From UHGV virus genome UHGV-1672213: a stretch of 12,748 nt of DNA. One strand, given 5' to 3'. The notes beneath the pieces are model-generated. The model was not told where the DNA came from. It did no database searches and was given only the letters and a program-made list of their open reading frames with translations. A program made the position numbers and the translations under genes. Shown one piece after another: positions 1,042 to 12,181 of the stretch (the first letter of the stretch is position 1; the number at the start of each line of letters is the position of its first letter). Source of the DNA: a virus.

Positions 1042-1544
1042 CTGTGTCGTCGCTCCGGCTTCAGTGATTTACGCAATTCCCGCGCCAGAAAATAGCGTGT
1101 CCAGCTGCGGTTCTTTTCAAGCGCTTCCACCATGAAGTTATTACGTGGAGCCAGTCGCCAGCCGCTGCCACCGGATGCACCACGATGATGACTACGACGA
1201 CGTTTTGCTCCTCCCCGGACACCAAAAAACAGAAACGCCGGATAGAAGTCACCAGAGATCATCCGGTTCCCCTTCCCGTTGCGCTGGTTAGGGGCAATGC
1301 GTGTCATAAAACCGGCTCGCTTTTTACTGGCTCTCGGCACCATATAACCAATCGAACGAGCCAGGCGTCCGGTCTGATAACCGGGGTTTTCACCCGGTGC
1401 CGACCGCGCACGGCGCATCACCAGCCGACGGGCATCACGCATATGACGCTGCCCAATCGTGACAAACGCCCGCCGGACACGGGCGCGGTTAAAGCGCATC
1501 TCGGCGGGCTGCTGAACATCAACGTGAAAAAAGGGAGTCGCCAT
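1038..1544 (-). CDS. HK97 gp10-family head-tail joining protein
   Basis: ATG at 1542-1544 with SD GGAGG 5 nt upstream; basic Arg-rich 168 aa protein; position after the head closure gene. Confidence 0.65.
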   Translation of the reverse strand: MATPFFHVDVQQPAEMRFNRARVRRAFVTIGQRHMRDARRLVMRRARSAPGENPGYQTGRLARSIGYMVPRASKKRAGFMTRIAPNQRNGKGNRMISGDFYPAFLFFGVRGGAKRRRSHHRGASGGSGWRLAPRNNFMVEALEKNRSWTRYFLARELRKSLKPERRHR

Positions 1545-1929
1545 TGCTGCCTCCGTGACTCTGCCTACATTCGCCCAGCTCCGTACACTCCAGCAGCAGA
1601 AAGCGCCGCGCCCCGTTCAGATCACGCTGACGTTTCACCCGGTACACACTGTCATCACAGACCACCTCATAATCAGCGGTGATCCCCCGGCGGTAACGAA
1701 TGGTGATGTAATGGGTGATGGCGTCCCCGGTCTGCGCGGTTTCCTGCCAGGTGGTGGCACTGGTCTGGATAACCTTCGCCCATGTCCGGAACGTAACCGG
1801 GTATTGAGGCTCCACGCCAAAGTTATCCGCGGGCATATCCACCCGCAGGCGGATCAGGACGCGTTTATTCAGTTCACCGGGGTCCGGCAGAATGTAGGTT
1901 GCGCTGGTCTGCGCCTGACGAATTTTCAT
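1519..1929 (-). CDS. Phage head closure / head-tail adaptor protein
   Basis: ATG at 1927-1929 overlaps the connector stop (ATGA); C-terminal LLLECTEL-type motif typical of this family; 136 aa. The 3' end overlaps the next gene by 26 nt. Confidence 0.65.
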   Translation of the reverse strand: MKIRQAQTSATYILPDPGELNKRVLIRLRVDMPADNFGVEPQYPVTFRTWAKVIQTSATTWQETAQTGDAITHYITIRYRRGITADYEVVCDDSVYRVKRQRDLNGARRFLLLECTELGECRQSHGGSNGDSLFSR

Positions 1930-2249
1930 TGCGGAAAGTACCTGTACGGGCCGACAAGCCAGCCAAAACTCTGCGGCATGTCGAGTTTCTCCACTTCCGT
2001 AACCGACGAGCGGTTTTCGTAAAAATGGCTGATAAGCATCAGCATCCCCAGACGAATATCATCCGGCAGGTGCAGCCCGTCCGGATCGCTCTCCGGAATG
2101 GTTTCATCCGGTGCATAGAGCTTCCGGTTCAGATACGTTTCCGTCCGCTTTTGCGCCGCACAGGCCAGCAGTTGCAGATGGCGGTCATCAGCATCGAAAT
2201 CCTCATCCAGCCGGAGTTGGGCTTTAATCTCTTCCATTGTCAGAAGCAT
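1926..2249 (-). CDS. gp6-like head-tail connector protein
   Basis: ATG at 2247-2249 with SD AGAGGG 6 nt upstream; N-terminus MLLTMEEIKAQLRLDEDFD typical of gp6-like connector proteins; 107 aa. Confidence 0.7.
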   Translation of the reverse strand: MLLTMEEIKAQLRLDEDFDADDRHLQLLACAAQKRTETYLNRKLYAPDETIPESDPDGLHLPDDIRLGMLMLISHFYENRSSVTEVEKLDMPQSFGWLVGPYRYFPQ

Positions 2250-2251
2250 AC

Positions 2252-2452
2252 TCAGCCCTCTTTACTGGTCGTGGCTTTTTTCTCTTTTGCCGCTTTACTG
2301 CTTTTTGCACTGGTTCCGCGCTCTGCTAACCCGGCCTGAAGTGCAATCTCCTGCACCCGGGCAGGAAGCGCCCCGTCGTCATACTCACCGGCCCGAATGA
2401 CCTCAACACGCATACCGTCCGGTGACCATTTCAGATCTTGTTTCAGGATCAT
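2252..2452 (-). CDS. Hypothetical small protein (66 aa), Lys/Ser-rich C-terminus
   Basis: ATG at 2450-2452; stop TGA at 2252-2254 immediately precedes the SD of the connector gene; sits between capsid and connector genes. Confidence 0.45.
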   Translation of the reverse strand: MILKQDLKWSPDGMRVEVIRAGEYDDGALPARVQEIALQAGLAERGTSAKSSKAAKEKKATTSKEG

Positions 2453-2473
2453 GATTCTTCACCCGTCAGAACA

Positions 2474-2495
2474 GGGGGCGCGGTTCCGCGCCCCT
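2474..2495 (-). promoter_or_regulatory. GC-rich stem-loop 8 nt downstream of the major capsid stop
   Basis: Palindrome GGGGCGC-GGTTCC-GCGCCCC (7-bp all-GC stem). No U-tract follows on the minus strand, so it is not a canonical intrinsic terminator. Confidence 0.5.
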
Positions 2496-2501
2496 GAGTG
2501 A

Positions 2502-3707
2502 TTACGCCGCTGCAATCTTCAGCAGTTTGATGGCCTGCGAATCGACCAGCATCCCGCCGGTGCGCTTGGTGGTATAAAAACCGACAAACGGTTTATTGGT
2601 GTACGGGTCACGCAGAATGCGGGTGCCGATACGGTCAACGATGGTGTAACCCCGTTTGAAGTTACCAAATGCAATGGCTTTCGCATCAGCGGCGATATCC
2701 GGCATCTGTTCGTTTTCAGCGATACCGTAACCCGCCAGAGAGGACGGCTGCCCCAGTTCCAGCCCCGGACGCCACAGATAGTTACCCTCGGTGTCTTTCA
2801 GCAGACGGATGGCAAACAGGCTGTTGTTGTTCATCATGAACTTCGCGCCAGTGCGGTGTGCCTTACGCAGCGTGTAAATCAGTTTGATAATGGCGTCTGC
2901 GGTCACCGCAGTCGCGTCGCCGGATACAATATGCTGAAGTTTGCCGAACGCCCGGACCTTATCGGTTTCATCAGTGGATTCATACGCCAGGAACCCTTTC
3001 GGCTTCTTGGTGCCATCGCCTGAGGTAAAGGCAATTTCTTCCTGTTCGGCAAATTCGGTTGCCAGCTCGCTGTTGATCCAGGCCTCCACGTTGAAAAAGG
3101 CATCGTCCAGCATTTTCTGGGTGGCCTGCGGGTTACCGTAGATTTCCCCCATGAGAGGTTCAATCAGCTCCAGTCTGGAGGTGGCAGTCTGGGATCGCGT
3201 ATCCGTTTCCCCCACCCATCCGGAAGCCGTACCGCCCAGATTCACCAGTTTTTTGTAGTCGGAACCGCCAACGGTGATCACCGTGGCTTCCTGACGCATC
3301 ACCACTTCATCTTTAAGCAGGTTGAGAATGTTGCGATCCAGCGCTTCCGGCACGGCGTAGCCACCGTCTTCATCGGTACCCACCTGCAATGCCTTACGCT
3401 CCAGATCGCGCAGACCGTCTTCACGGCCTTTACGCAGGAAGCCCACAAACGCCTCTTTATGCTCGGTGGCCAGTTTATTTTGCGCTCCACCTGCCGGACG
3501 TTTCAGCTCAAGCAGCTCTTTTTCAAGGTCGCTTTTGAGATTTTCCAGCTCGCTGAGTTTCCCGTTCAGGGTTTCCACCTGCCCGGCAAGCTTGCCTTTT
3601 TCCTGCTCAATCGCATCCACGCGCTTGTCGTTCTTTGCTTTGAAGTCGTCAAACTTCTGCTGCAGCTCCTGCGCGACCTGTTCGACATCTTTAATATCAA
3701 CCGCCAT
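2502..3707 (-). CDS. Major capsid protein, HK97 family, with N-terminal coiled-coil delta (scaffold) domain
   Basis: ATG at 3705-3707 with SD AGGAG 7 nt upstream; 401 aa; N-terminal ~100 aa coiled-coil (KLSELENLKSDLEKELLELK) followed by an HK97-type capsid fold region. Confidence 0.9.
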   Translation of the reverse strand: MAVDIKDVEQVAQELQQKFDDFKAKNDKRVDAIEQEKGKLAGQVETLNGKLSELENLKSDLEKELLELKRPAGGAQNKLATEHKEAFVGFLRKGREDGLRDLERKALQVGTDEDGGYAVPEALDRNILNLLKDEVVMRQEATVITVGGSDYKKLVNLGGTASGWVGETDTRSQTATSRLELIEPLMGEIYGNPQATQKMLDDAFFNVEAWINSELATEFAEQEEIAFTSGDGTKKPKGFLAYESTDETDKVRAFGKLQHIVSGDATAVTADAIIKLIYTLRKAHRTGAKFMMNNNSLFAIRLLKDTEGNYLWRPGLELGQPSSLAGYGIAENEQMPDIAADAKAIAFGNFKRGYTIVDRIGTRILRDPYTNKPFVGFYTTKRTGGMLVDSQAIKLLKIAAA

Positions 3708-3721
3708 CGTATTTCTCCTGA

Positions 3722-4372
3722 TTAGAAGTTCAGATTTTTCAGTGCATTCAGTGCAGAGCCCACATCCTCAGCGTCGCGCAGGGACAGTGCGCCATAGCCC
3801 CCGGCCATGAATGCTTTGGCCTGGGTACGGGAGAGTCCGACATCACGCAGGACTCTTTCGATTTTTTTCTGTTCGGGGATTTCCCCGCGGGCCAGCGCGT
3901 TCTTGACGTCGCTGATCCGCGCCTCGTCGTTAGATGGAAACGTCACCAGACTGACTTCCCAGAGGTCGATTTCTTTCAGCAGAAAGGCTTCTTTCGTCCG
4001 GTCGTATTCCCAGTCCTTCAGGACGTACCCAATAGAAAGGCCGGTTAACGAACCGGCCTTCATGTGTGCATGTGCGCGTTTTGCCAGGGGATCATCATCA
4101 ATGAGCAACCGTCCCCTGACGTAAAGCCCGACATCGTCTTCCTTCATTTCGGTGTAAACACCGATGGGTTCATCCATGCGGTGCTGCCAGAGCAGCGCAG
4201 GTAACGCTTTTCTGTCACTCCACGCCCGCAGGGAAGCAGCAAATGCCCCGGACATCACCACATCATCGTGGCTGTCCTTTACACCAAAGACGGAGCCATA
4301 CCCTTCAAACTCACCGGAGTCACTGACAGATTTCAGACTCAGCGGTACATCAAGACGTTGTTTCGTCTGCAT
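3722..4372 (-). CDS. Prohead maturation protease, HK97 family
   Basis: Motif EFEGYGSVFGVKDSHDDVVMSGAF typical of HK97 prohead proteases. Start reassigned to ATG 4370-4372 (MQTKQ..., SD AAGGA 8 nt upstream); the track start at 4408 lacks an SD and overlaps portal by 59 nt. Confidence 0.8.
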   Translation of the reverse strand: MQTKQRLDVPLSLKSVSDSGEFEGYGSVFGVKDSHDDVVMSGAFAASLRAWSDRKALPALLWQHRMDEPIGVYTEMKEDDVGLYVRGRLLIDDDPLAKRAHAHMKAGSLTGLSIGYVLKDWEYDRTKEAFLLKEIDLWEVSLVTFPSNDEARISDVKNALARGEIPEQKKIERVLRDVGLSRTQAKAFMAGGYGALSLRDAEDVGSALNALKNLNF

Positions 4373-5591
4373 TGGCGTTATCCTTCTGCTTACCGGCTTT
4401 ACTGCCATCGGAGGGTTTCGTGGTCATGTTCATCGGTGTGAGATAGACATCCCCACCGGGACGCGGATTCATATCTTCCAGGTCGCGGCAGTCATTGGGA
4501 GAGTAAATTCCCCAGTTAATCCCGGTGGCGTAGGCTTCAAAACGGGACTTCATATCCCCGCGCAGTAACGCCCCGGCGTTAAATTTGGCGTAATAAACGC
4601 CCTGCTTACTTTTTCGTACCAGTCCGGTGTTGATCCGCTGCTCAATGCGGGTCAGATACGGCACCAGTGAATAGTTGATAAATCCCAGCCCCAGTTCTTC
4701 GATATTGTTGAAGGTGGCGCGATCGGTGTTCTGCACCATGTGCAATGGCACACGGAACAGACGACAGATTTCTTCAAGCTGAAACTTGCGGGTTTCCAGG
4801 AACTGGCTGTCCTCGGCGTTCAGCGCCATCGACTTCCAGTCCAGCCCCATCTCAAGGATCATCGGGCGGTGAGCATTACCAAGCCCGGTGTGACGCTCCT
4901 CAAAATCTTTCTTCAGACGCTCATAAGCCTGATCCGACAGCGTCTGCTCTGTACGCAACACACCGGACGTCACCGCACCATTGCTGAACAGTCTGGCCCC
5001 GTGCTCTTCGGTCGCAGCTGCCAGCGATATTGCCTCGCGGGCATAGGCGATGGGATTCAGTCCCACCAGACCGTCCAGCGTCAGCGTGCGCACATGCCAG
5101 ATATCTTCCTGGCTCAGTACATCCGTGGAGCCGTCCGGGAATGTGACCTGGTAAACCGGTTCCCAGCTACTGTTAAGCTTCGGTACCACACAACCTGGGT
5201 CGACGGGCAGCAGTTCAGCCACTTCGCCAAATGCTTTCACTTTGTAGGCGTAAAAGTTTCCCCGCAGGCACAGACAGGTGACCACCAGCTCCCAGAACTC
5301 CTGCGGCGTCATATAGCCATTGGGATGCGTGGAGATCAGCTTATGCAGACGTTCGCCGGTGGCTCTCTGTTTCAGGCTGCCGTTCAGGTGATACAGGTTG
5401 CAGGGCAACATCCCGACCGACTCCGCCAGCACCCTGACGCAGGAAAAAACCGCCGTCAGTCGCATGGCCCGCTGGCTGCTGATCTGCTTTCCGGTATAGG
5501 TGTCATATGACAGCCCGATAGCATCCGCCAGCTCTGCTGGCGTGGTCACCGGTGCGTCACTTTTTCGTTGAAATAATCCCGAAAAGAACAC
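4350..5591 (-). CDS. Portal protein, HK97 family
   Basis: 413 aa; GTG start at 5589-5591 preceded by SD GGAGGT (5-nt spacer); position between terminase and protease. Confidence 0.88.
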   Translation of the reverse strand: MFFSGLFQRKSDAPVTTPAELADAIGLSYDTYTGKQISSQRAMRLTAVFSCVRVLAESVGMLPCNLYHLNGSLKQRATGERLHKLISTHPNGYMTPQEFWELVVTCLCLRGNFYAYKVKAFGEVAELLPVDPGCVVPKLNSSWEPVYQVTFPDGSTDVLSQEDIWHVRTLTLDGLVGLNPIAYAREAISLAAATEEHGARLFSNGAVTSGVLRTEQTLSDQAYERLKKDFEERHTGLGNAHRPMILEMGLDWKSMALNAEDSQFLETRKFQLEEICRLFRVPLHMVQNTDRATFNNIEELGLGFINYSLVPYLTRIEQRINTGLVRKSKQGVYYAKFNAGALLRGDMKSRFEAYATGINWGIYSPNDCRDLEDMNPRPGGDVYLTPMNMTTKPSDGSKAGKQKDNANADETTS

Positions 5592-5773
5592 TATTTACCT
5601 CCGCCGACAGACGGCTGTGTACGGTCGAGATATCGCGCCACCAGCCACGACCAGAACAGGCACAGCGCCCCGGCAACAACAAACCCCGCCGGGGGATAAA
5701 TCAGCCAGGCACCATACGCCAGCAAAAGCGCACCCAGCACGCCCACCAGAGGCGCGAGAATCAGCATGATCAT
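5591..5773 (-). CDS. Small hydrophobic membrane protein (60 aa, two predicted TM helices)
   Basis: ATG at 5771-5773 with SD GAGGT; begins 9 nt after the TerL stop and its stop overlaps the portal start by 1 nt. Both hydrophobic stretches are long enough to span a membrane. Confidence 0.5.
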
Positions 5774-5784
5774 AATTACCTCAG

Positions 5785-7518
5785 TTAAAGCGAGCGGATC
5801 CCGTAGGACTCAATGTGATCAGACAGCGTGTCTTCTTTCTCGTACAGCATGGCTCTGCCAACCGCCATAATCAGCGCAACTGCACCATCAATTTTGTTTT
5901 CCGCCTGCTCCTTGACGGGCTTCACCACATCATCGTTACCCGGAATGGTTTTGCCGACCACGTTGCCGATACACCAGGTCATGATGGGATTGCCGTCATG
6001 ATGAAAACGCCCCGATTCAATTGCCGCTTCCAGCTCTTTCATCGGGTCGGACATGTTGGTGTAGTTCTGAATGATGGTGATGGGGTTCAGGTCTTCATCC
6101 GCAAGGTCATGCGACAGCCCGGTCGCCCCGAAGGGGTCGATGGGTGACTCACTGACCGGGCTGATTTTGTTCGCCGCTTTGGCCTCCTCGAGGATGTAGC
6201 GATAATCCACCTCCGCACCATCGGTAACGGTCAGAACGCCCATTTCCACCCATTTCTGAAAGCGCTCGGCTGTCCGGCGATCTTCATTTTTCTCGACGCT
6301 GTACACCGTGTCATACGGTACCCAGAAGCGCGGAGCCACACTGTAGTAATGCGTTTTACCGTCAATCTCGCGGGTATAAAGTCGCGCCATGCTGTTCATA
6401 TCCAGCTTACGCGCCAGGTCAAAGGCCAGAATGCACGGCTGCCCCTCGAACTGCTCAAGGGTCAGTGATTTATCCTCGCAGCTCTGCCAGCTCACCAGGT
6501 TGAAATACGCCGAACGCGCCGACACCCAGATATTGAGGTGTTTTGTTTTAAAGACGTTTGCCAGACGGGCGTTATTTTTCGCACGCTGCTGCTGACTTAA
6601 CAAAAATTCGCGATAAACCGACACGCCAATATTTGGATTGGCTTTTTCCAGCACCTGCGGGTCGGTCCAGTCGTCACCTTCATCAACGGTATAGATGATC
6701 CCGAACAGTTCATCGTTAGGCACCGAGCCGTTGAGCATCTCGATGACTTCCCGCCGCTTGTCGTAGCACGGCCCCTCAATGTTGTACCCGGCAGTAGTAA
6801 TGGCCCACATCAGTGGCTGACGTCGCGCCCCCATCCCGGTAAGCATCGTGGTGTAAAGCGCATCGGTGGCGTGCTCGTGATATTCATCCACCACCGCACA
6901 GTGGGGTGATGAACCATCACCGGGGTTACCGATCAGCGGTTCAAACCGCGCGCCATCCTCCGGACGATTCATGTTTGAGGCGTTAACCTCAATCCCGAAC
7001 GCTTCCGTCAGCATGGGTGTGCGTTTACACATCAGTCTTGCCGGACGAAAGACTTCCCATGCCTGTTTCTCTGTCGTGGCACCGGAATACACTTCCGCGC
7101 CAAACTCGTTATCACAGGCAAAACAATACAGGGCAACACCGGCAGAGATTGCCGATTTGCCGTTCTTACGGGGAATTTCGGTATACACCTCCCGGAAGCG
7201 GCGCAACCGGGTGCCTTTATTGACCCAGCCAAACGCACAGCAGATCACAAATAGCTGCCACGGCTCCAGCGTGATGGGCATCCGTTTAAATGCCCACTCA
7301 CCCTTGGTGTGCGGCAACAGCTGAATAAATTTCGCGGCCCGTTCAGCCAGGTCCTTGTCGAAGCGGTAACGAAACGACTTACTTTTTTCCTCCATCAGGT
7401 CATCAAGATGGCGCTGGCAGGCCTGAATCACAAACTGGCAGGCCACAATCTTTCCGCGCACGACATCACGGGCATACTGATTGGCAGCATTTACGTTGGG
7501 GTAAGATTTCCGGCTCAT
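5785..7518 (-). CDS. Terminase large subunit
   Basis: 577 aa; ATG at 7516-7518 overlaps the TerS stop (ATGA); Walker A-like GKS in [10 protein letters not shown], ATPase and nuclease domains consistent with HK97-type terminases. Confidence 0.93.
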
Positions 7519-8134: not shown

Positions 8135-8485
8135 TTACTTCAACCGTTCACGGGCCGTCTTCGCCTTATGACACGGCCAGCACAGACTCTGCAGATTACT
8201 GTCGGCATCAGTGCCGCCATGTGCTTTAGGGATGATGTGGTCAACGGTTTTCGCCTCACGCACCACACCGGCACGCAAACACAACTGACACAGGCCTTTG
8301 TCACGCTTGAGCGCACGTTCACGGATAACATCCCATTTCGAACCATAACCGCGCTGGTGTCTGGACTGGCCCGGCTTGTATTGCTTCCAGCCTTCACTTT
8401 TGTGGCTTTCGCAATAGCCTGACGGGTCAGTTGTGGTATGGCGGCAGCCGCGAACACGGCAGGCTTTTGGGGTTCGTGGTGGCAT
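8135..8485 (-). CDS. HNH homing-type endonuclease (terminase-associated)
   Basis: Cys pairs CRVRGC/CESH and HNH core DHIIPKAHGG...N...LCWPCH. Start reassigned to ATG 8483-8485 (MPPRTPKACR..., SD GGAG 5 nt upstream); the track start at 8554 has no SD and would overlap the upstream terminator. Confidence 0.85.
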   Translation of the reverse strand: MPPRTPKACRVRGCRHTTTDPSGYCESHKSEGWKQYKPGQSRHQRGYGSKWDVIRERALKRDKGLCQLCLRAGVVREAKTVDHIIPKAHGGTDADSNLQSLCWPCHKAKTARERLK

Positions 8486-8492
8486 GCTGGCT

Positions 8493-8520
8493 CCAATAAA
8501 AAGCCCCGCGACGCGAGGCT
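8493..8520 (-). terminator. Intrinsic terminator closing the AT-rich cargo island
   Basis: Minus-strand RNA stem AGCCUC/GGGGCU (one G-U pair) with 7-nt loop, followed by UUUUUAUU; lies between the 67-aa gene stop (8551) and the HNH start. Confidence 0.5.
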
Positions 8521-8550
8521 TAGACAGAAAAAACACCGGATAAGATCTGG

Positions 8551-8754
8551 TCATTCTTCCTTTTTAATAATGACTTCTCGAGGGCGCAATTGTTGGATAG
8601 CACGACAAATACAATATGGAATAACTGCCCATGCTACTCCCATTGCTGCACCTGCAGCCTGTTGTGGAGCACTCTGAGCACCGAAAACCCCGAGGATTCC
8701 TTCAATAAATCCAATAGCACTACACAAAAGACTGATGACCCAGAGAATTTTCAT
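8551..8754 (-). CDS. Small membrane protein (67 aa, two predicted TM segments, basic C-terminus)
   Basis: ATG at 8752-8754 with consensus SD AAGGAG 9 nt upstream; sample stretch 8701-8760 counts about 35% GC versus about 63% in a structural-gene stretch; followed by its own terminator. Confidence 0.6.
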   Translation of the reverse strand: MKILWVISLLCSAIGFIEGILGVFGAQSAPQQAAGAAMGVAWAVIPYCICRAIQQLRPREVIIKKEE

Positions 8755-11395: not shown

Positions 11396-11425
11396 TAAAG
11401 TAAAAGCCCCGCACGATGGCGAGGC
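11396..11425 (-). terminator. tR'-like intrinsic terminator downstream of the Q gene
   Basis: Minus-strand stem GCCUCGC/GCGGGGC (7 bp, one G-U) with 6-nt loop, followed by UUUUACUUUA. Confidence 0.55.
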
Positions 11426-11479
11426 TGTTAATTCTTTGTCGACCAACAAAGCTATGGCGACGATATCAGATTTACATGA

Positions 11480-11508
11480 AATATAAGCGTTTCAGTTCGG
11501 TTTTGCAA
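11480..11508 (-). promoter_or_regulatory. PR'-like sigma70 late promoter (putative Q engagement region)
   Basis: Minus strand: -35 TTGCAA (11503-11508), 17-nt spacer, -10 TATATT (11480-11485). The -35 overlaps the last Q codons; the predicted start is about 50-75 nt upstream of the tR'-like terminator, matching lambdoid PR'-qut-tR' layout. Confidence 0.45.
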
Positions 11509-12181
11509 GACTTACGTGCAAACTTGTCGCCTTTTGTTGTGAACGTGATCGCGTTACTGAGATAAGCGCACCGCTATCGAGTCGCATAAAGCAGCTACGC
11601 ATTGCCAACCAGTGAGGCAGGTATGTCTCTGTCCAGGTGGATTTCGCCACGCCAACCAGTTCCGCCAGCTTCTGGTATTCGTAGGCATCTTTCCCGACCA
11701 ACCCTGCTTTGACATCCTGCGCTGCCAGCCATATCAGCTTCTTCAGGCGCTCCATGGTCTTGCCTGCCACCCTCTTCGCGCCGAGATACCCCCTGAATTC
11801 AGACCACGCCCACTGGGTGATCGCCACCTGGTATTCAAAGCTGATGTTTTCACTGTAACTCCACAGCAACCACGCTTTCTGATGTTCTTCGAGAGACAGA
11901 ACCGCGCGGCGCCATGAAGATGTTGAGAACTCAACCTGGCTGACCAGTGCAATGGATGAACCTTTTGCGTACGACTGCTTACCGGAAATCGGCGGATTAT
12001 CCAGCGTAATCATCTTGCCCGTTACCTCATCCAGAATGCGCGGCTTCTTTCGTTTATATGTACCAGTATCAAATTGTGCATGCTCCAGCCAGGCTTCAAG
12101 CTGGCCTTTCGTTGCTCCGCTCAAATCAGCAGTAGCCACAATGAGTTGCTCGCGGACATACTGTAAATATTGGGTATTCAT
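11492..12181 (-). CDS. Putative late-gene antiterminator Q (non-lambda type)
   Basis: 229 aa; ATG overlaps the ylcG stop; sits between rusA-ylcG and the lysis genes, the canonical Q position, and is followed by a promoter and terminator. Sequence family not confirmed. Confidence 0.65.
   Translation of the reverse strand: MNTQYLQYVREQLIVATADLSGATKGQLEAWLEHAQFDTGTYKRKKPRILDEVTGKMITLDNPPISGKQSYAKGSSIALVSQVEFSTSSWRRAVLSLEEHQKAWLLWSYSENISFEYQVAITQWAWSEFRGYLGAKRVAGKTMERLKKLIWLAAQDVKAGLVGKDAYEYQKLAELVGVAKSTWTETYLPHWLAMRSCFMRLDSGALISVTRSRSQQKATSLHVSLAKPN

What the first reader, a model, noticed from the sequence alone, without database searches (positions are those of the whole stretch)
2474..2495. 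Stable GC hairpin just after the major capsid gene
A 7-bp all-GC stem with 6-nt loop begins 8 nt after the capsid stop and has no trailing U-tract. It could act as an mRNA 3'-stabilising or partial attenuation element that raises capsid expression relative to the downstream head-tail joining genes.
Basis: seen in the sequence. Interest (0 to 1): 0.28.

Follow-up and report, generated by a model that had tools for sequence, protein, structure and literature searches.

The report
Conserved RNA hairpin after capsid gene
The GC hairpin just after the major capsid gene of this SfI/ST64B-like prophage is real and conserved in related phages, but it is an ordinary feature already annotated as a 'putative terminator' in phage HK97, and published RNA-seq from a close relative shows no fall in RNA across it.

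Summary
Observation confirmed. On the minus (coding) strand an all-G:C stem (GGGGCGCG-GAAC-CGCGCCCC, 2494..2475, about -17 to -18 kcal/mol) starts 8 nt after the capsid stop and has no U-tract. It is the only such stem in the window; 0.017 are expected by chance.

It is conserved. 41 of 52 related capsid loci carry a hairpin 2-31 nt after the stop, with at least 10 unrelated stem sequences. At -10 kcal/mol or better, 73% of capsid junctions have one, against 4% of other gene junctions. G:U pairs and UUCG loops favour the sense RNA. Only 16 of 41 have a U-tract.

The kind is known. HK97's record annotates a 'putative terminator' at the same place, lambda has the same layout after gene E, and T7 has Tphi after gene 10.

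The window encodes a Q antiterminator, so late transcription should read through. In ST64B (92.6% identical, same hairpin) published TPM values do not fall across it (57 to 76 and 67), but fall 4.6-fold across a canonical terminator in the same operon.

So partial attenuation is not supported. My best guess, with modest confidence, is a read-through terminator-type hairpin acting after transcription as a 3'-exonuclease barrier; translational insulation is the main rival. Low interest.

The parts
2475..2494 (-). RNA hairpin: 5' arm 2494-2487 GGGGCGCG, loop 2486-2483 GAAC, 3' arm 2482-2475 CGCGCCCC
   Evidence: Sequence read. Folds (-17.4 to -18.5 kcal/mol). Unique in the window.
2495..2501 (-). 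7-nt spacer between the capsid stop codon and the stem (UCACUCA)
   Evidence: The spacer is 2-31 nt, median 7, in 41 related loci.
2502..3707 (-). Major capsid protein gene (HK97-fold, 401 aa); stop TAA at 2504-2502
   Evidence: Pfam PF05065, E 1.5e-78. 97-98% DNA identity to SfI, SfII and SfIV and 92.6% to ST64B.
2465..2474 (-). Tail after the stem, CUGUUCUGAC: U-rich but not a U-tract (at most 4 U in 8)
2463..2474 (-). Possible weak second hairpin CUGU-UCUG-ACGG (4 bp, about -2.8 kcal/mol) that touches the GGG of the next gene's weak Shine-Dalgarno sequence
   Evidence: Seen in the folds. The variants ACGG, ACAG and AUGG all stay compatible with pairing. Marginal; not established.
2252..2452 (-). 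Next cistron: 66-aa ORF of unknown function (ATG at 2452-2450, preceded by GGGUGA), followed by head-tail connector genes at 1926..2249 and 1519..1929
   Evidence: phrog_1020, E 1.5e-44. PF05135 and PF05521 for the following genes.
11492..12181 (-). Q antiterminator gene that governs the late operon containing the hairpin
   Evidence: PF06323, E 1.1e-91. phrog_304, E 1e-104.
11403..11508 (-). PR'-like promoter (11508..11480) plus a short terminated RNA matching Rfam isrJ (11476..11403, terminator hairpin 11426..11405): the Q loading and terminator unit
8501..8521 (-). Canonical intrinsic terminator (AAGCCUCGCG-UCG-CGGGGCUU plus UUUAUU) upstream of the HNH gene; used as an internal comparison
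   Evidence: The ST64B homologue shows a 4.3-4.6-fold TPM drop.

Best explanation
The element is a terminator-type RNA hairpin on the late (sense) transcript. It marks the boundary between the major capsid gene and the low-copy neck genes of a Q-antiterminated lambdoid late operon.

It lacks a U-tract and the polymerase is Q-modified, so it is read through during lytic transcription. That step is inferred, and it agrees with the ST64B RNA-seq.

Its most likely job comes after transcription. Once the polycistronic RNA is cut downstream, the very stable G:C stem blocks 3'-to-5' exonucleases (PNPase, RNase II), so capsid-ending fragments stay translatable for longer. This step is inferred by analogy and is not shown.

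In relatives that keep a U-tract, the same site can also create such 3' ends by termination of unmodified polymerase.
For: Conservation and position:
- 41 of 52 loci with a related capsid gene (59-98% identical) have a hairpin of -9.5 kcal/mol or better starting 2-31 nt (median 7) after the stop.
- A perfect hairpin of -10 kcal/mol or better occurs at 73% of capsid junctions, against 4.0% of 455 other junctions and 2.4% of 505 random sites. A Mann-Whitney test on 34-nt MFE gives p = 4.6e-14.
- The stems are unrelated across lineages: GGGGC/GCCCC, CCGGGAGC/GCUCCCGG, GGCGGCA/UGCCGCC, GCCCUUUAU/AUAAAGGGC, GUGCCCGC/GCGGGCAC and others.
- Within the window's own clade the top pair changes G:C to A:U (phi467) and to U:G (ST64B).

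RNA on the sense strand:
- The sense fold beats the antisense fold in 38 of 52 loci and is worse in 9 (p = 1.8e-5). Among 36 unique hairpins the counts are 25 better, 5 equal and 6 worse.
- There are 21 G:U pairs in the sense stems, and 6 hairpins have C(UUCG)G tetraloops.

Terminator type:
- 16 of 41 homologous sites have 5 or more U in 8.
- HK97's record annotates a 'putative terminator' 7 nt after its capsid gene. Lambda has UGGCCC-UUCG-GGGCCA plus UUGUUUCUCU after gene E.

Read-through:
- A Q gene and a PR'/tR' unit are in the window.
- There is no TPM fall across the ST64B homologue, while a canonical terminator in the same operon gives a 4.3-4.6-fold fall.
- In relatives and in HK97, a terminator-like hairpin also sits in front of the abundant major tail gene, which simple attenuation cannot explain.

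That stable 3' stem-loops block exonucleases is established knowledge (REP in malE-malF, the puf operon, phiX174 stabilising sequences).
Against: - The only expression data available (ST64B, gene-level TPM) show no excess of capsid RNA over the two downstream genes, so any stabilising effect limited to the upstream side is small or absent under those conditions.
- No 3'-end or half-life data exist for this hairpin.
- 11 of 52 relatives lack a hairpin meeting the criteria (-9.5 kcal/mol or better, starting within 35 nt of the stop). Eight Xenorhabdus loci have no comparable hairpin at all; three others (L110, L112, L126) have a weaker or more distant one. The element is therefore dispensable.
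- Within the enterobacterial subgroup the GGGG/CCCC core is conserved by descent, with no compensatory changes in a positional alignment.
- A hairpin 7 nt from the stop is partly melted whenever a ribosome terminates.
Confidence: 0.37

Rival explanations
1. Translational insulator. The hairpin refolds behind terminating ribosomes and stops the heavy ribosome traffic on the capsid cistron from re-initiating on, or opening up, the weak ribosome-binding site of the next cistron. Protein ratios are then set at the level of translation while RNA stays uniform.
For: - RNA abundance is uniform across the hairpin in ST64B, which this model predicts.
- The operon is Q-antiterminated, and in lambda late-protein ratios are set mainly by translation initiation (Sampson et al. 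1988, from my own knowledge).
- The layout is compact and conserved: stop, 2-12 nt, hairpin, 1-20 nt, Shine-Dalgarno sequence.
- In phiP27 a U8 run before the hairpin pairs with the AGGAGGAA Shine-Dalgarno sequence of the next gene, extending the stem to 16 bp.
- Hairpins sit at both edges of the low-copy neck-gene block in relatives and in HK97.
- Relatives without the hairpin have the stop and the Shine-Dalgarno sequence directly adjacent.
Against: - In the window itself the Shine-Dalgarno sequence is not clearly sequestered. The centroid fold shows only the main stem, and the second hairpin is worth only about -2.8 kcal/mol.
- There is no hairpin at the protease-to-capsid boundary, where translation rates also change.
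- No experimental precedent for this site was found.
Confidence: 0.2
2. Back-stop terminator for polymerase that has not been modified by Q. In the lysogen, or for transcripts from internal or moron promoters, the hairpin stops stray transcription. It is silent in the lytic programme.
For: - 39% of homologous sites are canonical terminators.
- In ST64B the canonical terminator after the moron sb55 does stop non-late transcripts.
- HK97's annotators called the equivalent site a terminator.
Against: - The window's hairpin has no U-tract, so it should terminate poorly even for unmodified polymerase.
- In uninduced ST64B conditions the downstream genes are again at or above the capsid gene.
- This model gives no reason for the site to sit specifically after the capsid gene.
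Confidence: 0.12
3. Partial attenuator during lytic growth. A fraction of late transcripts ends at the hairpin, lowering RNA for the neck genes.
For: - Known parallels exist. T7 Tphi lies directly after capsid gene 10.
- The phiX174 terminators T_J, T_F and T_G block only 20-40% of transcription.
- Some relatives have good U-tracts.
Against: - Q antiterminator is present and there is no U-tract.
- ST64B TPM does not fall across the homologous hairpin in any expressed condition, whereas a 4.3-4.6-fold fall is visible at a canonical terminator in the same table.
- A similar hairpin precedes the abundant major tail gene in relatives.
- Adjacent genes differ by up to about 2-fold in TPM, so a fall of 30% or less cannot be strictly excluded.
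Confidence: 0.08
4. A DNA-level palindrome (protein-binding site, cruciform or recombination junction) or a chance feature with no function.
For: - The stem is a perfect DNA palindrome.
- Mosaic homology breaks lie nearby: the phiP27 and Klebsiella matches end at about 2513, and the phi467 match at about 2376.
- One relative (L133) has the loop flipped from GAAC to GUUC.
Against: - The sequence is not conserved while the fold is.
- The sense strand is favoured, with G:U pairs and UUCG loops.
- Chance expectation is 0.017 per window.
- The site is enriched 18-fold over other gene junctions.
- There is one copy per prophage, and it is not a dispersed repeat.
Confidence: 0.04

Closest known systems
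HK97 'putative terminator' after gene 5 (NC_002167, 5192-5213)
   Same: It sits in the same place in a lambdoid late operon with an HK97-fold capsid gene. It starts 7 nt after the capsid stop, has a 7-bp G:C-rich stem plus a tetraloop (GGGCGGG-GAAA-CCCGCCC), and is followed within 10 nt by the next start codon. It is annotated in the public record.
   Different: HK97 has a UUUU tail and the window does not. The stem sequences are unrelated. The annotation is a prediction, and I found no functional test.
Lambda E-FI intergenic hairpin
   Same: UAA-UCA-UGGCCC-UUCG-GGGCCA-UUGUUUCUCU-GUGGAGGAG-AUG: a hairpin 3 nt after the major capsid stop, then a U-rich tail with interruptions like the window's, then the Shine-Dalgarno sequence. 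The operon is Q-antiterminated.
   Different: The stem is shorter (6 bp). It is not annotated in the record, and no function is known to me.
T7 terminator Tphi
   Same: It lies directly between the major capsid gene 10 and tail gene 11. It is the classical case of a hairpin after the capsid gene that raises capsid message relative to downstream genes.
   Different: It is a true terminator with a U-tract that acts on T7 RNA polymerase. Here the polymerase is Q-modified host enzyme, and no RNA step is seen in the relative ST64B.
phiX174 leaky terminators T_J, T_F, T_G and mRNA-stabilising sequences
   Same: Weak hairpin terminators placed after structural genes, including capsid gene F, that block only 20-40% of transcription. 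Earlier work cited there (Hayashi and Hayashi 1985) linked phiX174 sequences to mRNA stability.
   Different: A different virus type with no antitermination system, and a measurable RNA step exists there.
Intercistronic 3'-exonuclease barriers (REP in malE-malF; puf operon hairpins)
   Same: A stable stem-loop immediately 3' of the more highly expressed cistron of an operon. This is the mechanism proposed here (established knowledge).
   Different: REP elements are dispersed repeats with a consensus, whereas this hairpin is single-copy and found only at the capsid junction. The defining excess of upstream RNA is not seen in ST64B.

Membership tests
Intrinsic (Rho-independent) terminator | G+C-rich stem-loop of about 5-14 bp with a 3-8 nt loop | tested here: met
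   8 bp, all G:C, GAAC loop, -17.4 kcal/mol.
Intrinsic (Rho-independent) terminator | U-tract immediately after the stem (5 or more U in 8) | tested here: not met
   The tail is CUGUUCUGAC, at most 4 U in 8. It was not listed by the scan. The criterion is met at 16 of 41 homologous sites in relatives.
Intrinsic (Rho-independent) terminator | Transcripts end there (RNA abundance falls, or 3' ends map to the site) | tested here: not met
   Tested only indirectly, on the ST64B homologue at gene level. TPM goes 57.0 to 76.0 and 67.4, and 74.1 to 93.2 and 92.4. The positive control at a canonical terminator goes 187.8 to 40.4. 3'-end mapping is not available.
Intercistronic mRNA-stabilising hairpin (3'-exonuclease barrier) | Stable stem-loop on the sense RNA just 3' of the more highly expressed cistron | tested here: met
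   Position. Sense-strand preference.
Intercistronic mRNA-stabilising hairpin (3'-exonuclease barrier) | Upstream RNA segment more abundant or longer-lived than the downstream segment | tested here: not met
   In ST64B gene-level TPM the downstream genes are at or above the capsid gene in all expressed conditions. Half-lives are not available.
Intercistronic mRNA-stabilising hairpin (3'-exonuclease barrier) | Processed 3' ends at the base of the stem; effect lost in stem mutants or dependent on PNPase/RNase II | not testable with these tools
   Needs 3'-end mapping and mutant analysis.
REP/BIME dispersed palindromes | Many dispersed copies per genome | tested here: not met
   One copy in the window. 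Present in 1041 of 5426 E. coli genomes, median 1 place per genome. In every row listed (40 of 1049 matching records) it lies under 'phage major capsid protein | hypothetical protein'.
RNase III processing site (T7 R sites, lambda sib) | About 20 bp or more of double-stranded RNA | tested here: not met
   8-10 bp only.
Recoding stimulator (stop-codon read-through or -1 frameshift) | Slippery heptamer or leaky stop context, plus a conserved extension ORF | tested here: not met
   GCA GCG GCG UAA is not slippery. The in-frame extension is 11 codons ending at UGA. Stop codon type and downstream sequence differ freely among relatives.
Any curated RNA family (Rfam 15) | Covariance-model match | tested here: not met
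   No match at 2400-2520 even at E up to 1. The only good match in the window is isrJ at 11403-11476.
Post-capsid terminator-like hairpin of lambdoid/HK97-like late operons (as annotated in HK97) | G:C-rich hairpin within about 10 nt of the major capsid stop, in a late operon controlled by Q, followed closely by the next cistron | tested here: met
   plus 41 of 52 relatives.

The most novel reading that the evidence does not exclude
The hairpin is one of a conserved pair of terminator-like hairpins, one after the capsid gene and one just before the major tail gene. Together they bracket the low-copy neck-gene block in HK97-like late operons. They would act as translational or decay insulators that set virion protein stoichiometry in operons where Q antitermination rules out control at the level of transcription.
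Probability: 0.15. Interest if true: 0.4.

Novelty: new member of a known kind. Interest (0 to 1): 0.15.

Why it matters
It matters little beyond annotation. Terminator-like hairpins after the major head and tail genes of lambdoid phages have been annotated since the HK97 genome, and this one sits in a prophage family found in about 19% of complete E. coli genomes.

The one useful point is a caution. A hairpin like this inside a Q-antiterminated operon should not be read as an attenuator. The available RNA-seq shows none, so what these widely conserved hairpins actually do (RNA protection or translational insulation) remains untested and could be settled with simple mutants.

Tried and rejected
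- Rfam scan of the whole window at E up to 1: nothing at the hairpin.
- MAFFT and RNAalifold on 16 positional homologues: only the shared GGGG/CCCC core was recovered, with no compensatory pairs. Within the enterobacterial subgroup, conservation is therefore by descent. Evidence for selection on the fold comes from between-lineage turnover and from the junction-versus-control statistics. I did not build a covariance model, because hairpins picked as hairpins pair by construction.
- REP-type repeat: rejected.
- RNase III site: stem too short.
- Read-through or frameshift stimulator: no slippery site and no conserved extension.
- Antisense-strand or bidirectional terminator: no U-tract on either strand, and the sense strand is favoured.
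- Literature searches for an experimental study of post-capsid hairpins in lambdoid phages found none.
- The Pam3 paper was a false lead; its 'terminator' is the tail terminator protein.
- The ONT-cappable-seq, D29, KP34 and epsilon34 papers had no relevant statement.
- The SfIV paper predicts Rho-independent terminators only in a figure that is not held.
- The lambda ribosome-profiling paper is not held.
- The protein database search returned only relatives of 84% identity or more among its top hits. Diversity came from the genome-contig scan instead.

Full report
**What is in the sequence.** All genes in the window are on the minus strand, in the order Q antiterminator, lysis genes, HNH endonuclease, small and large terminase, portal, prohead protease, major capsid protein, a 66-aa ORF, head-tail connector, head completion protein and tail genes. 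DNA identity is 97-98% to Shigella phages SfI, SfII and SfIV and to E. coli prophages, 92.6% to Salmonella ST64B, and 82% to phiP27.

The capsid gene is 2502..3707(-) and ends with TAA at 2504-2502. After 7 nt comes GGGGCGCG (2494-2487), then GAAC, then CGCGCCCC (2482-2475), then CUGUUCUGACGGGUGAAGAAUC and the AUG of the 66-aa ORF at 2452. Eight pairs plus a tetraloop is the more realistic fold. The energy is -17.4 kcal/mol for the stem alone and -18.5 in a 29-nt context, with z = -3.4.

**Is it more than chance?** Yes.
- It is the only perfect all-G:C stem of 8 bp or more in the window. Dinucleotide shuffles give 0.017 per sequence.
- It is the strongest perfect hairpin on the sense strand.
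- It is the strongest structure after any of the 20 stop codons, at -20.2 against -15.6 for the runner-up.
- It is single-copy in the window. The 101-nt junction occurs in 1041 of 5426 complete E. coli genomes, median one place per genome. Every listed match lies between 'phage major capsid protein' and a hypothetical protein. It is therefore not a REP-like dispersed repeat.

**Conservation.** Among 80 near-identical viral contigs, 56 have exactly the window's junction. The variants include a G:U-compatible change (5 contigs) and rare disruptive changes in single or paired contigs.

A scan of one genome per species gave 52 loci with capsid proteins 59-98% identical, from Enterobacterales, Gilliamella and Endozoicomonas.
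- In 41 of 52 loci a hairpin of -9.5 kcal/mol or better starts 2-31 nt (median 7) after the stop.
- The stems are unrelated between lineages. Examples are GGGGC-UUCG-GCCCC, CCGGGAGC-GCAG-GCUCCCGG, GGCGGCA-GAAA-UGCCGCC, GCCCUUUAU-UAA-AUAAAGGGC and AAGCCCUC-AUAAC-GAGGGCUU. PhiP27 has GUGCCCGC-GUAAUG-GCGGGCAC.
- A perfect hairpin of -10 kcal/mol or better lies within -6..+44 of the stop at 73% of capsid junctions. The figure is 4.0% for 455 other junctions in the same loci and 2.4% for 505 random sites. On 34-nt MFE the Mann-Whitney p is 4.6e-14.
- Eight Xenorhabdus loci lack it altogether and have the next Shine-Dalgarno sequence right after the stop, so it is dispensable.

One caveat applies. 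Within the enterobacterial subgroup the GGGG/CCCC core is shared by descent, and a positional alignment shows no compensatory pairs. The window clade looks like that core with a GCG...CGC extension. In that extension the closing pair is G:C here, A:U in phi467 and U:G in ST64B.

**RNA or DNA, and which strand?** The sense-strand fold is better than the antisense fold in 38 of 52 loci and worse in 9 (Wilcoxon p = 1.8e-5). Among 36 unique hairpins the counts are 25 better, 5 equal and 6 worse. There are 21 G:U pairs in the sense stems, and six hairpins have C(UUCG)G tetraloops. This points to the late mRNA, not to the DNA or an antisense RNA.

**Is it a terminator?**
- Only 16 of 41 homologous hairpins have a U-tract of 5 or more U in 8. 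The window has at most 4.
- The window encodes a Q antiterminator (PF06323, E 1e-91). Directly downstream lie a sigma-70-like promoter and a 74-nt terminated RNA that matches Rfam isrJ. This is a PR'/tR' unit. Q-modified polymerase reads through terminators (established for lambdoid phages, and stated for SfIV in PMC3851460).
- Experimental data exist for a close relative. Table S5 of Owen et al. 2020 (PMC7067206) gives TPM for ST64B genes in S. Typhimurium D23580, where late genes are induced by peroxide and nitric oxide shock. In transcription order, as peroxide / NO values:

| Gene | Peroxide TPM | NO TPM |
|---|---|---|
| Large terminase | 35.3 | 35.2 |
| Portal | 32.8 | 36.3 |
| Protease | 36.6 | 43.8 |
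| Capsid | 57.0 | 74.1 |
| sb7 | 76.0 | 93.2 |
| sb8 | 67.4 | 92.4 |
| sb9 | 40.7 | 61.2 |

- ST64B has the homologous hairpin (GGGGCGCU-GAAC-GGCGCCCC) with the same tail. There is no fall across it in any expressed condition.
- In the same table, TPM falls from 187.8 to 40.4 and from 222.9 to 52.1 across a canonical hairpin plus U-tract between the moron sb55 and the HNH gene. That terminator is also present in the window at 8521..8501.
- Gene-level TPM can therefore detect termination, and it detects none at the capsid hairpin.
- Limits of this evidence: the prophage is defective, induction is low, the resolution is per gene, and adjacent genes can differ about 2-fold. For example, the tail tube gene is at 122 and the overlapping next gene at 67. 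A fall of 30% or less cannot be excluded.

**Context in known phages.**
- HK97's RefSeq record annotates a 'putative terminator' at 5192-5213, 7 nt after gene 5 (UGA-UGGAG-GGGCGGG-GAAA-CCCGCCC-UUUUAACGU-AUG). It annotates others before and after the major tail gene.
- Lambda has UAA-UCA-UGGCCC-UUCG-GGGCCA-UUGUUUCUCUGUGGAGGAG-AUG after gene E.
- T7 has Tphi between capsid gene 10 and gene 11.
- The phiX174 terminators after structural genes block only 20-40% of transcription.
- In the siphovirus-type relatives collected here, the only other recurrent strong hairpin is a canonical terminator. It lies between the tail-completion gene and the major tail tube gene. A terminator in front of an abundant protein's gene again argues for read-through and against simple attenuation.

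**Mechanism.**
- Shown: a conserved, position-specific, sense-strand hairpin of terminator type; a Q-controlled operon; no RNA step in ST64B.
- Inferred: the hairpin is read through in lytic growth and acts after transcription.

I rank the classical 3'-exonuclease barrier first (0.37), because it is the established role of such stems and fits their thermodynamic design. The ST64B data give it no positive support. Translational insulation of the weakly translated neck genes from the heavily translated capsid cistron is second (0.20). It fits the uniform RNA, the compact layout of stop, hairpin and Shine-Dalgarno sequence, and the phiP27 extended stem that pairs U8 with the next Shine-Dalgarno sequence. 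A back-stop terminator for unmodified polymerase (0.12), lytic attenuation (0.08) and DNA-level or no function (0.04) follow.

**Verdict.** The element is likely regulatory, but attenuation is not supported. It is a new member of a known kind, and of low interest.

Noticed in passing
window 11403-11508 (-): There is a full-length match to the Hfq-binding sRNA isrJ (RF01393, 64.9 bits, E 2.4e-10). It lies immediately downstream of the Q antiterminator gene and a TTGCAA-17-TATATT promoter, and it ends in a hairpin plus U-tract. By position, this 'isrJ' is the short PR'-tR' transcript of the late promoter, like lambda 6S RNA and the Stx-phage sRNA StxS (PMC7547250). That paper does not mention IsrJ.
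   Followed up: partly
L097 5509-5540; also L087-L089, L091, L103, L104, L107-L113; HK97 record 6692-6719: A second conserved, canonical terminator-like hairpin lies between the tail-completion gene (PF11367) and the major tail tube gene, about 1.45-1.8 kb downstream of the capsid stop. The low-copy neck-gene block is thus bracketed by hairpins.
   Followed up: partly
L001 (phiP27) about 1425-1470 (-): A U8 run precedes the post-capsid hairpin and can pair with the AGGAGGAA Shine-Dalgarno sequence of the next gene. This extends the stem to 16 bp (-24.4 kcal/mol) and sequesters the ribosome-binding site.
   Followed up: partly
window 8485-8554 (-): The longest-ORF start of the HNH endonuclease gene (8554) is probably wrong. 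A canonical terminator (8521..8501) and a GGAG Shine-Dalgarno sequence precede an ATG at about 8485, which aligns with the annotated ST64B sb56 start. Homology to ST64B and SfIV also begins at this terminator, so it is a mosaic junction.
   Followed up: partly
L133 (Edwardsiella hoshinae contig) about 3711-3734: The stem is the same as in the window clade, but the loop is GUUC instead of GAAC. This is the exact reverse complement of the palindromic segment, as expected from a hairpin-templated inversion or template switch.
   Followed up: no
window 4036-4061: An 11-bp perfect palindromic hairpin (GAAGGCCGGUUCGUUAACCGGCCUUU, -17.0 kcal/mol) lies inside the prohead protease gene. It is the second strongest hairpin in the window on both strands.
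   Followed up: no
window 5668-5694 (-): A 9-bp G:C-rich hairpin (CCCCGGCGGGGUUUGUUGUUGCCGGGG, -15.6 kcal/mol) lies inside the 60-aa membrane-protein ORF between the large terminase and portal genes.
   Followed up: no
window 2463-2474 (-): A weak second hairpin, CUGU-UCUG-ACGG, abuts the main stem and touches the next gene's Shine-Dalgarno sequence. The natural variants ACGG, ACAG and AUGG all keep pairing, and one variant (AAGG, L067) breaks it.
   Followed up: partly
ST64B expression table (PMC7067206, Table S5): Capsid, sb7 and sb8 together are about 1.6-fold above both the upstream (portal, protease) and downstream (sb9 onward) genes. The tail tube gene is about 2-fold above its neighbours even though it overlaps the next gene. 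RNA differences therefore exist in this late operon but do not coincide with the capsid hairpin.
   Followed up: no
L111, L118-L122, L124, L132 (Xenorhabdus): In this subgroup of related capsid loci the post-capsid hairpin and the small ORF are both absent. The connector gene's Shine-Dalgarno sequence follows the stop within a few bases.
   Followed up: no
proteins P0011, P0012, P0023: Some database entries join this capsid protein to unrelated names or organisms: 'patatin-like phospholipase RssA' in Escherichia sp. TW09308, and a protease-capsid fusion filed under the nematode Cooperia oncophora. These are probably gene-call fusions or contamination.
   Followed up: no
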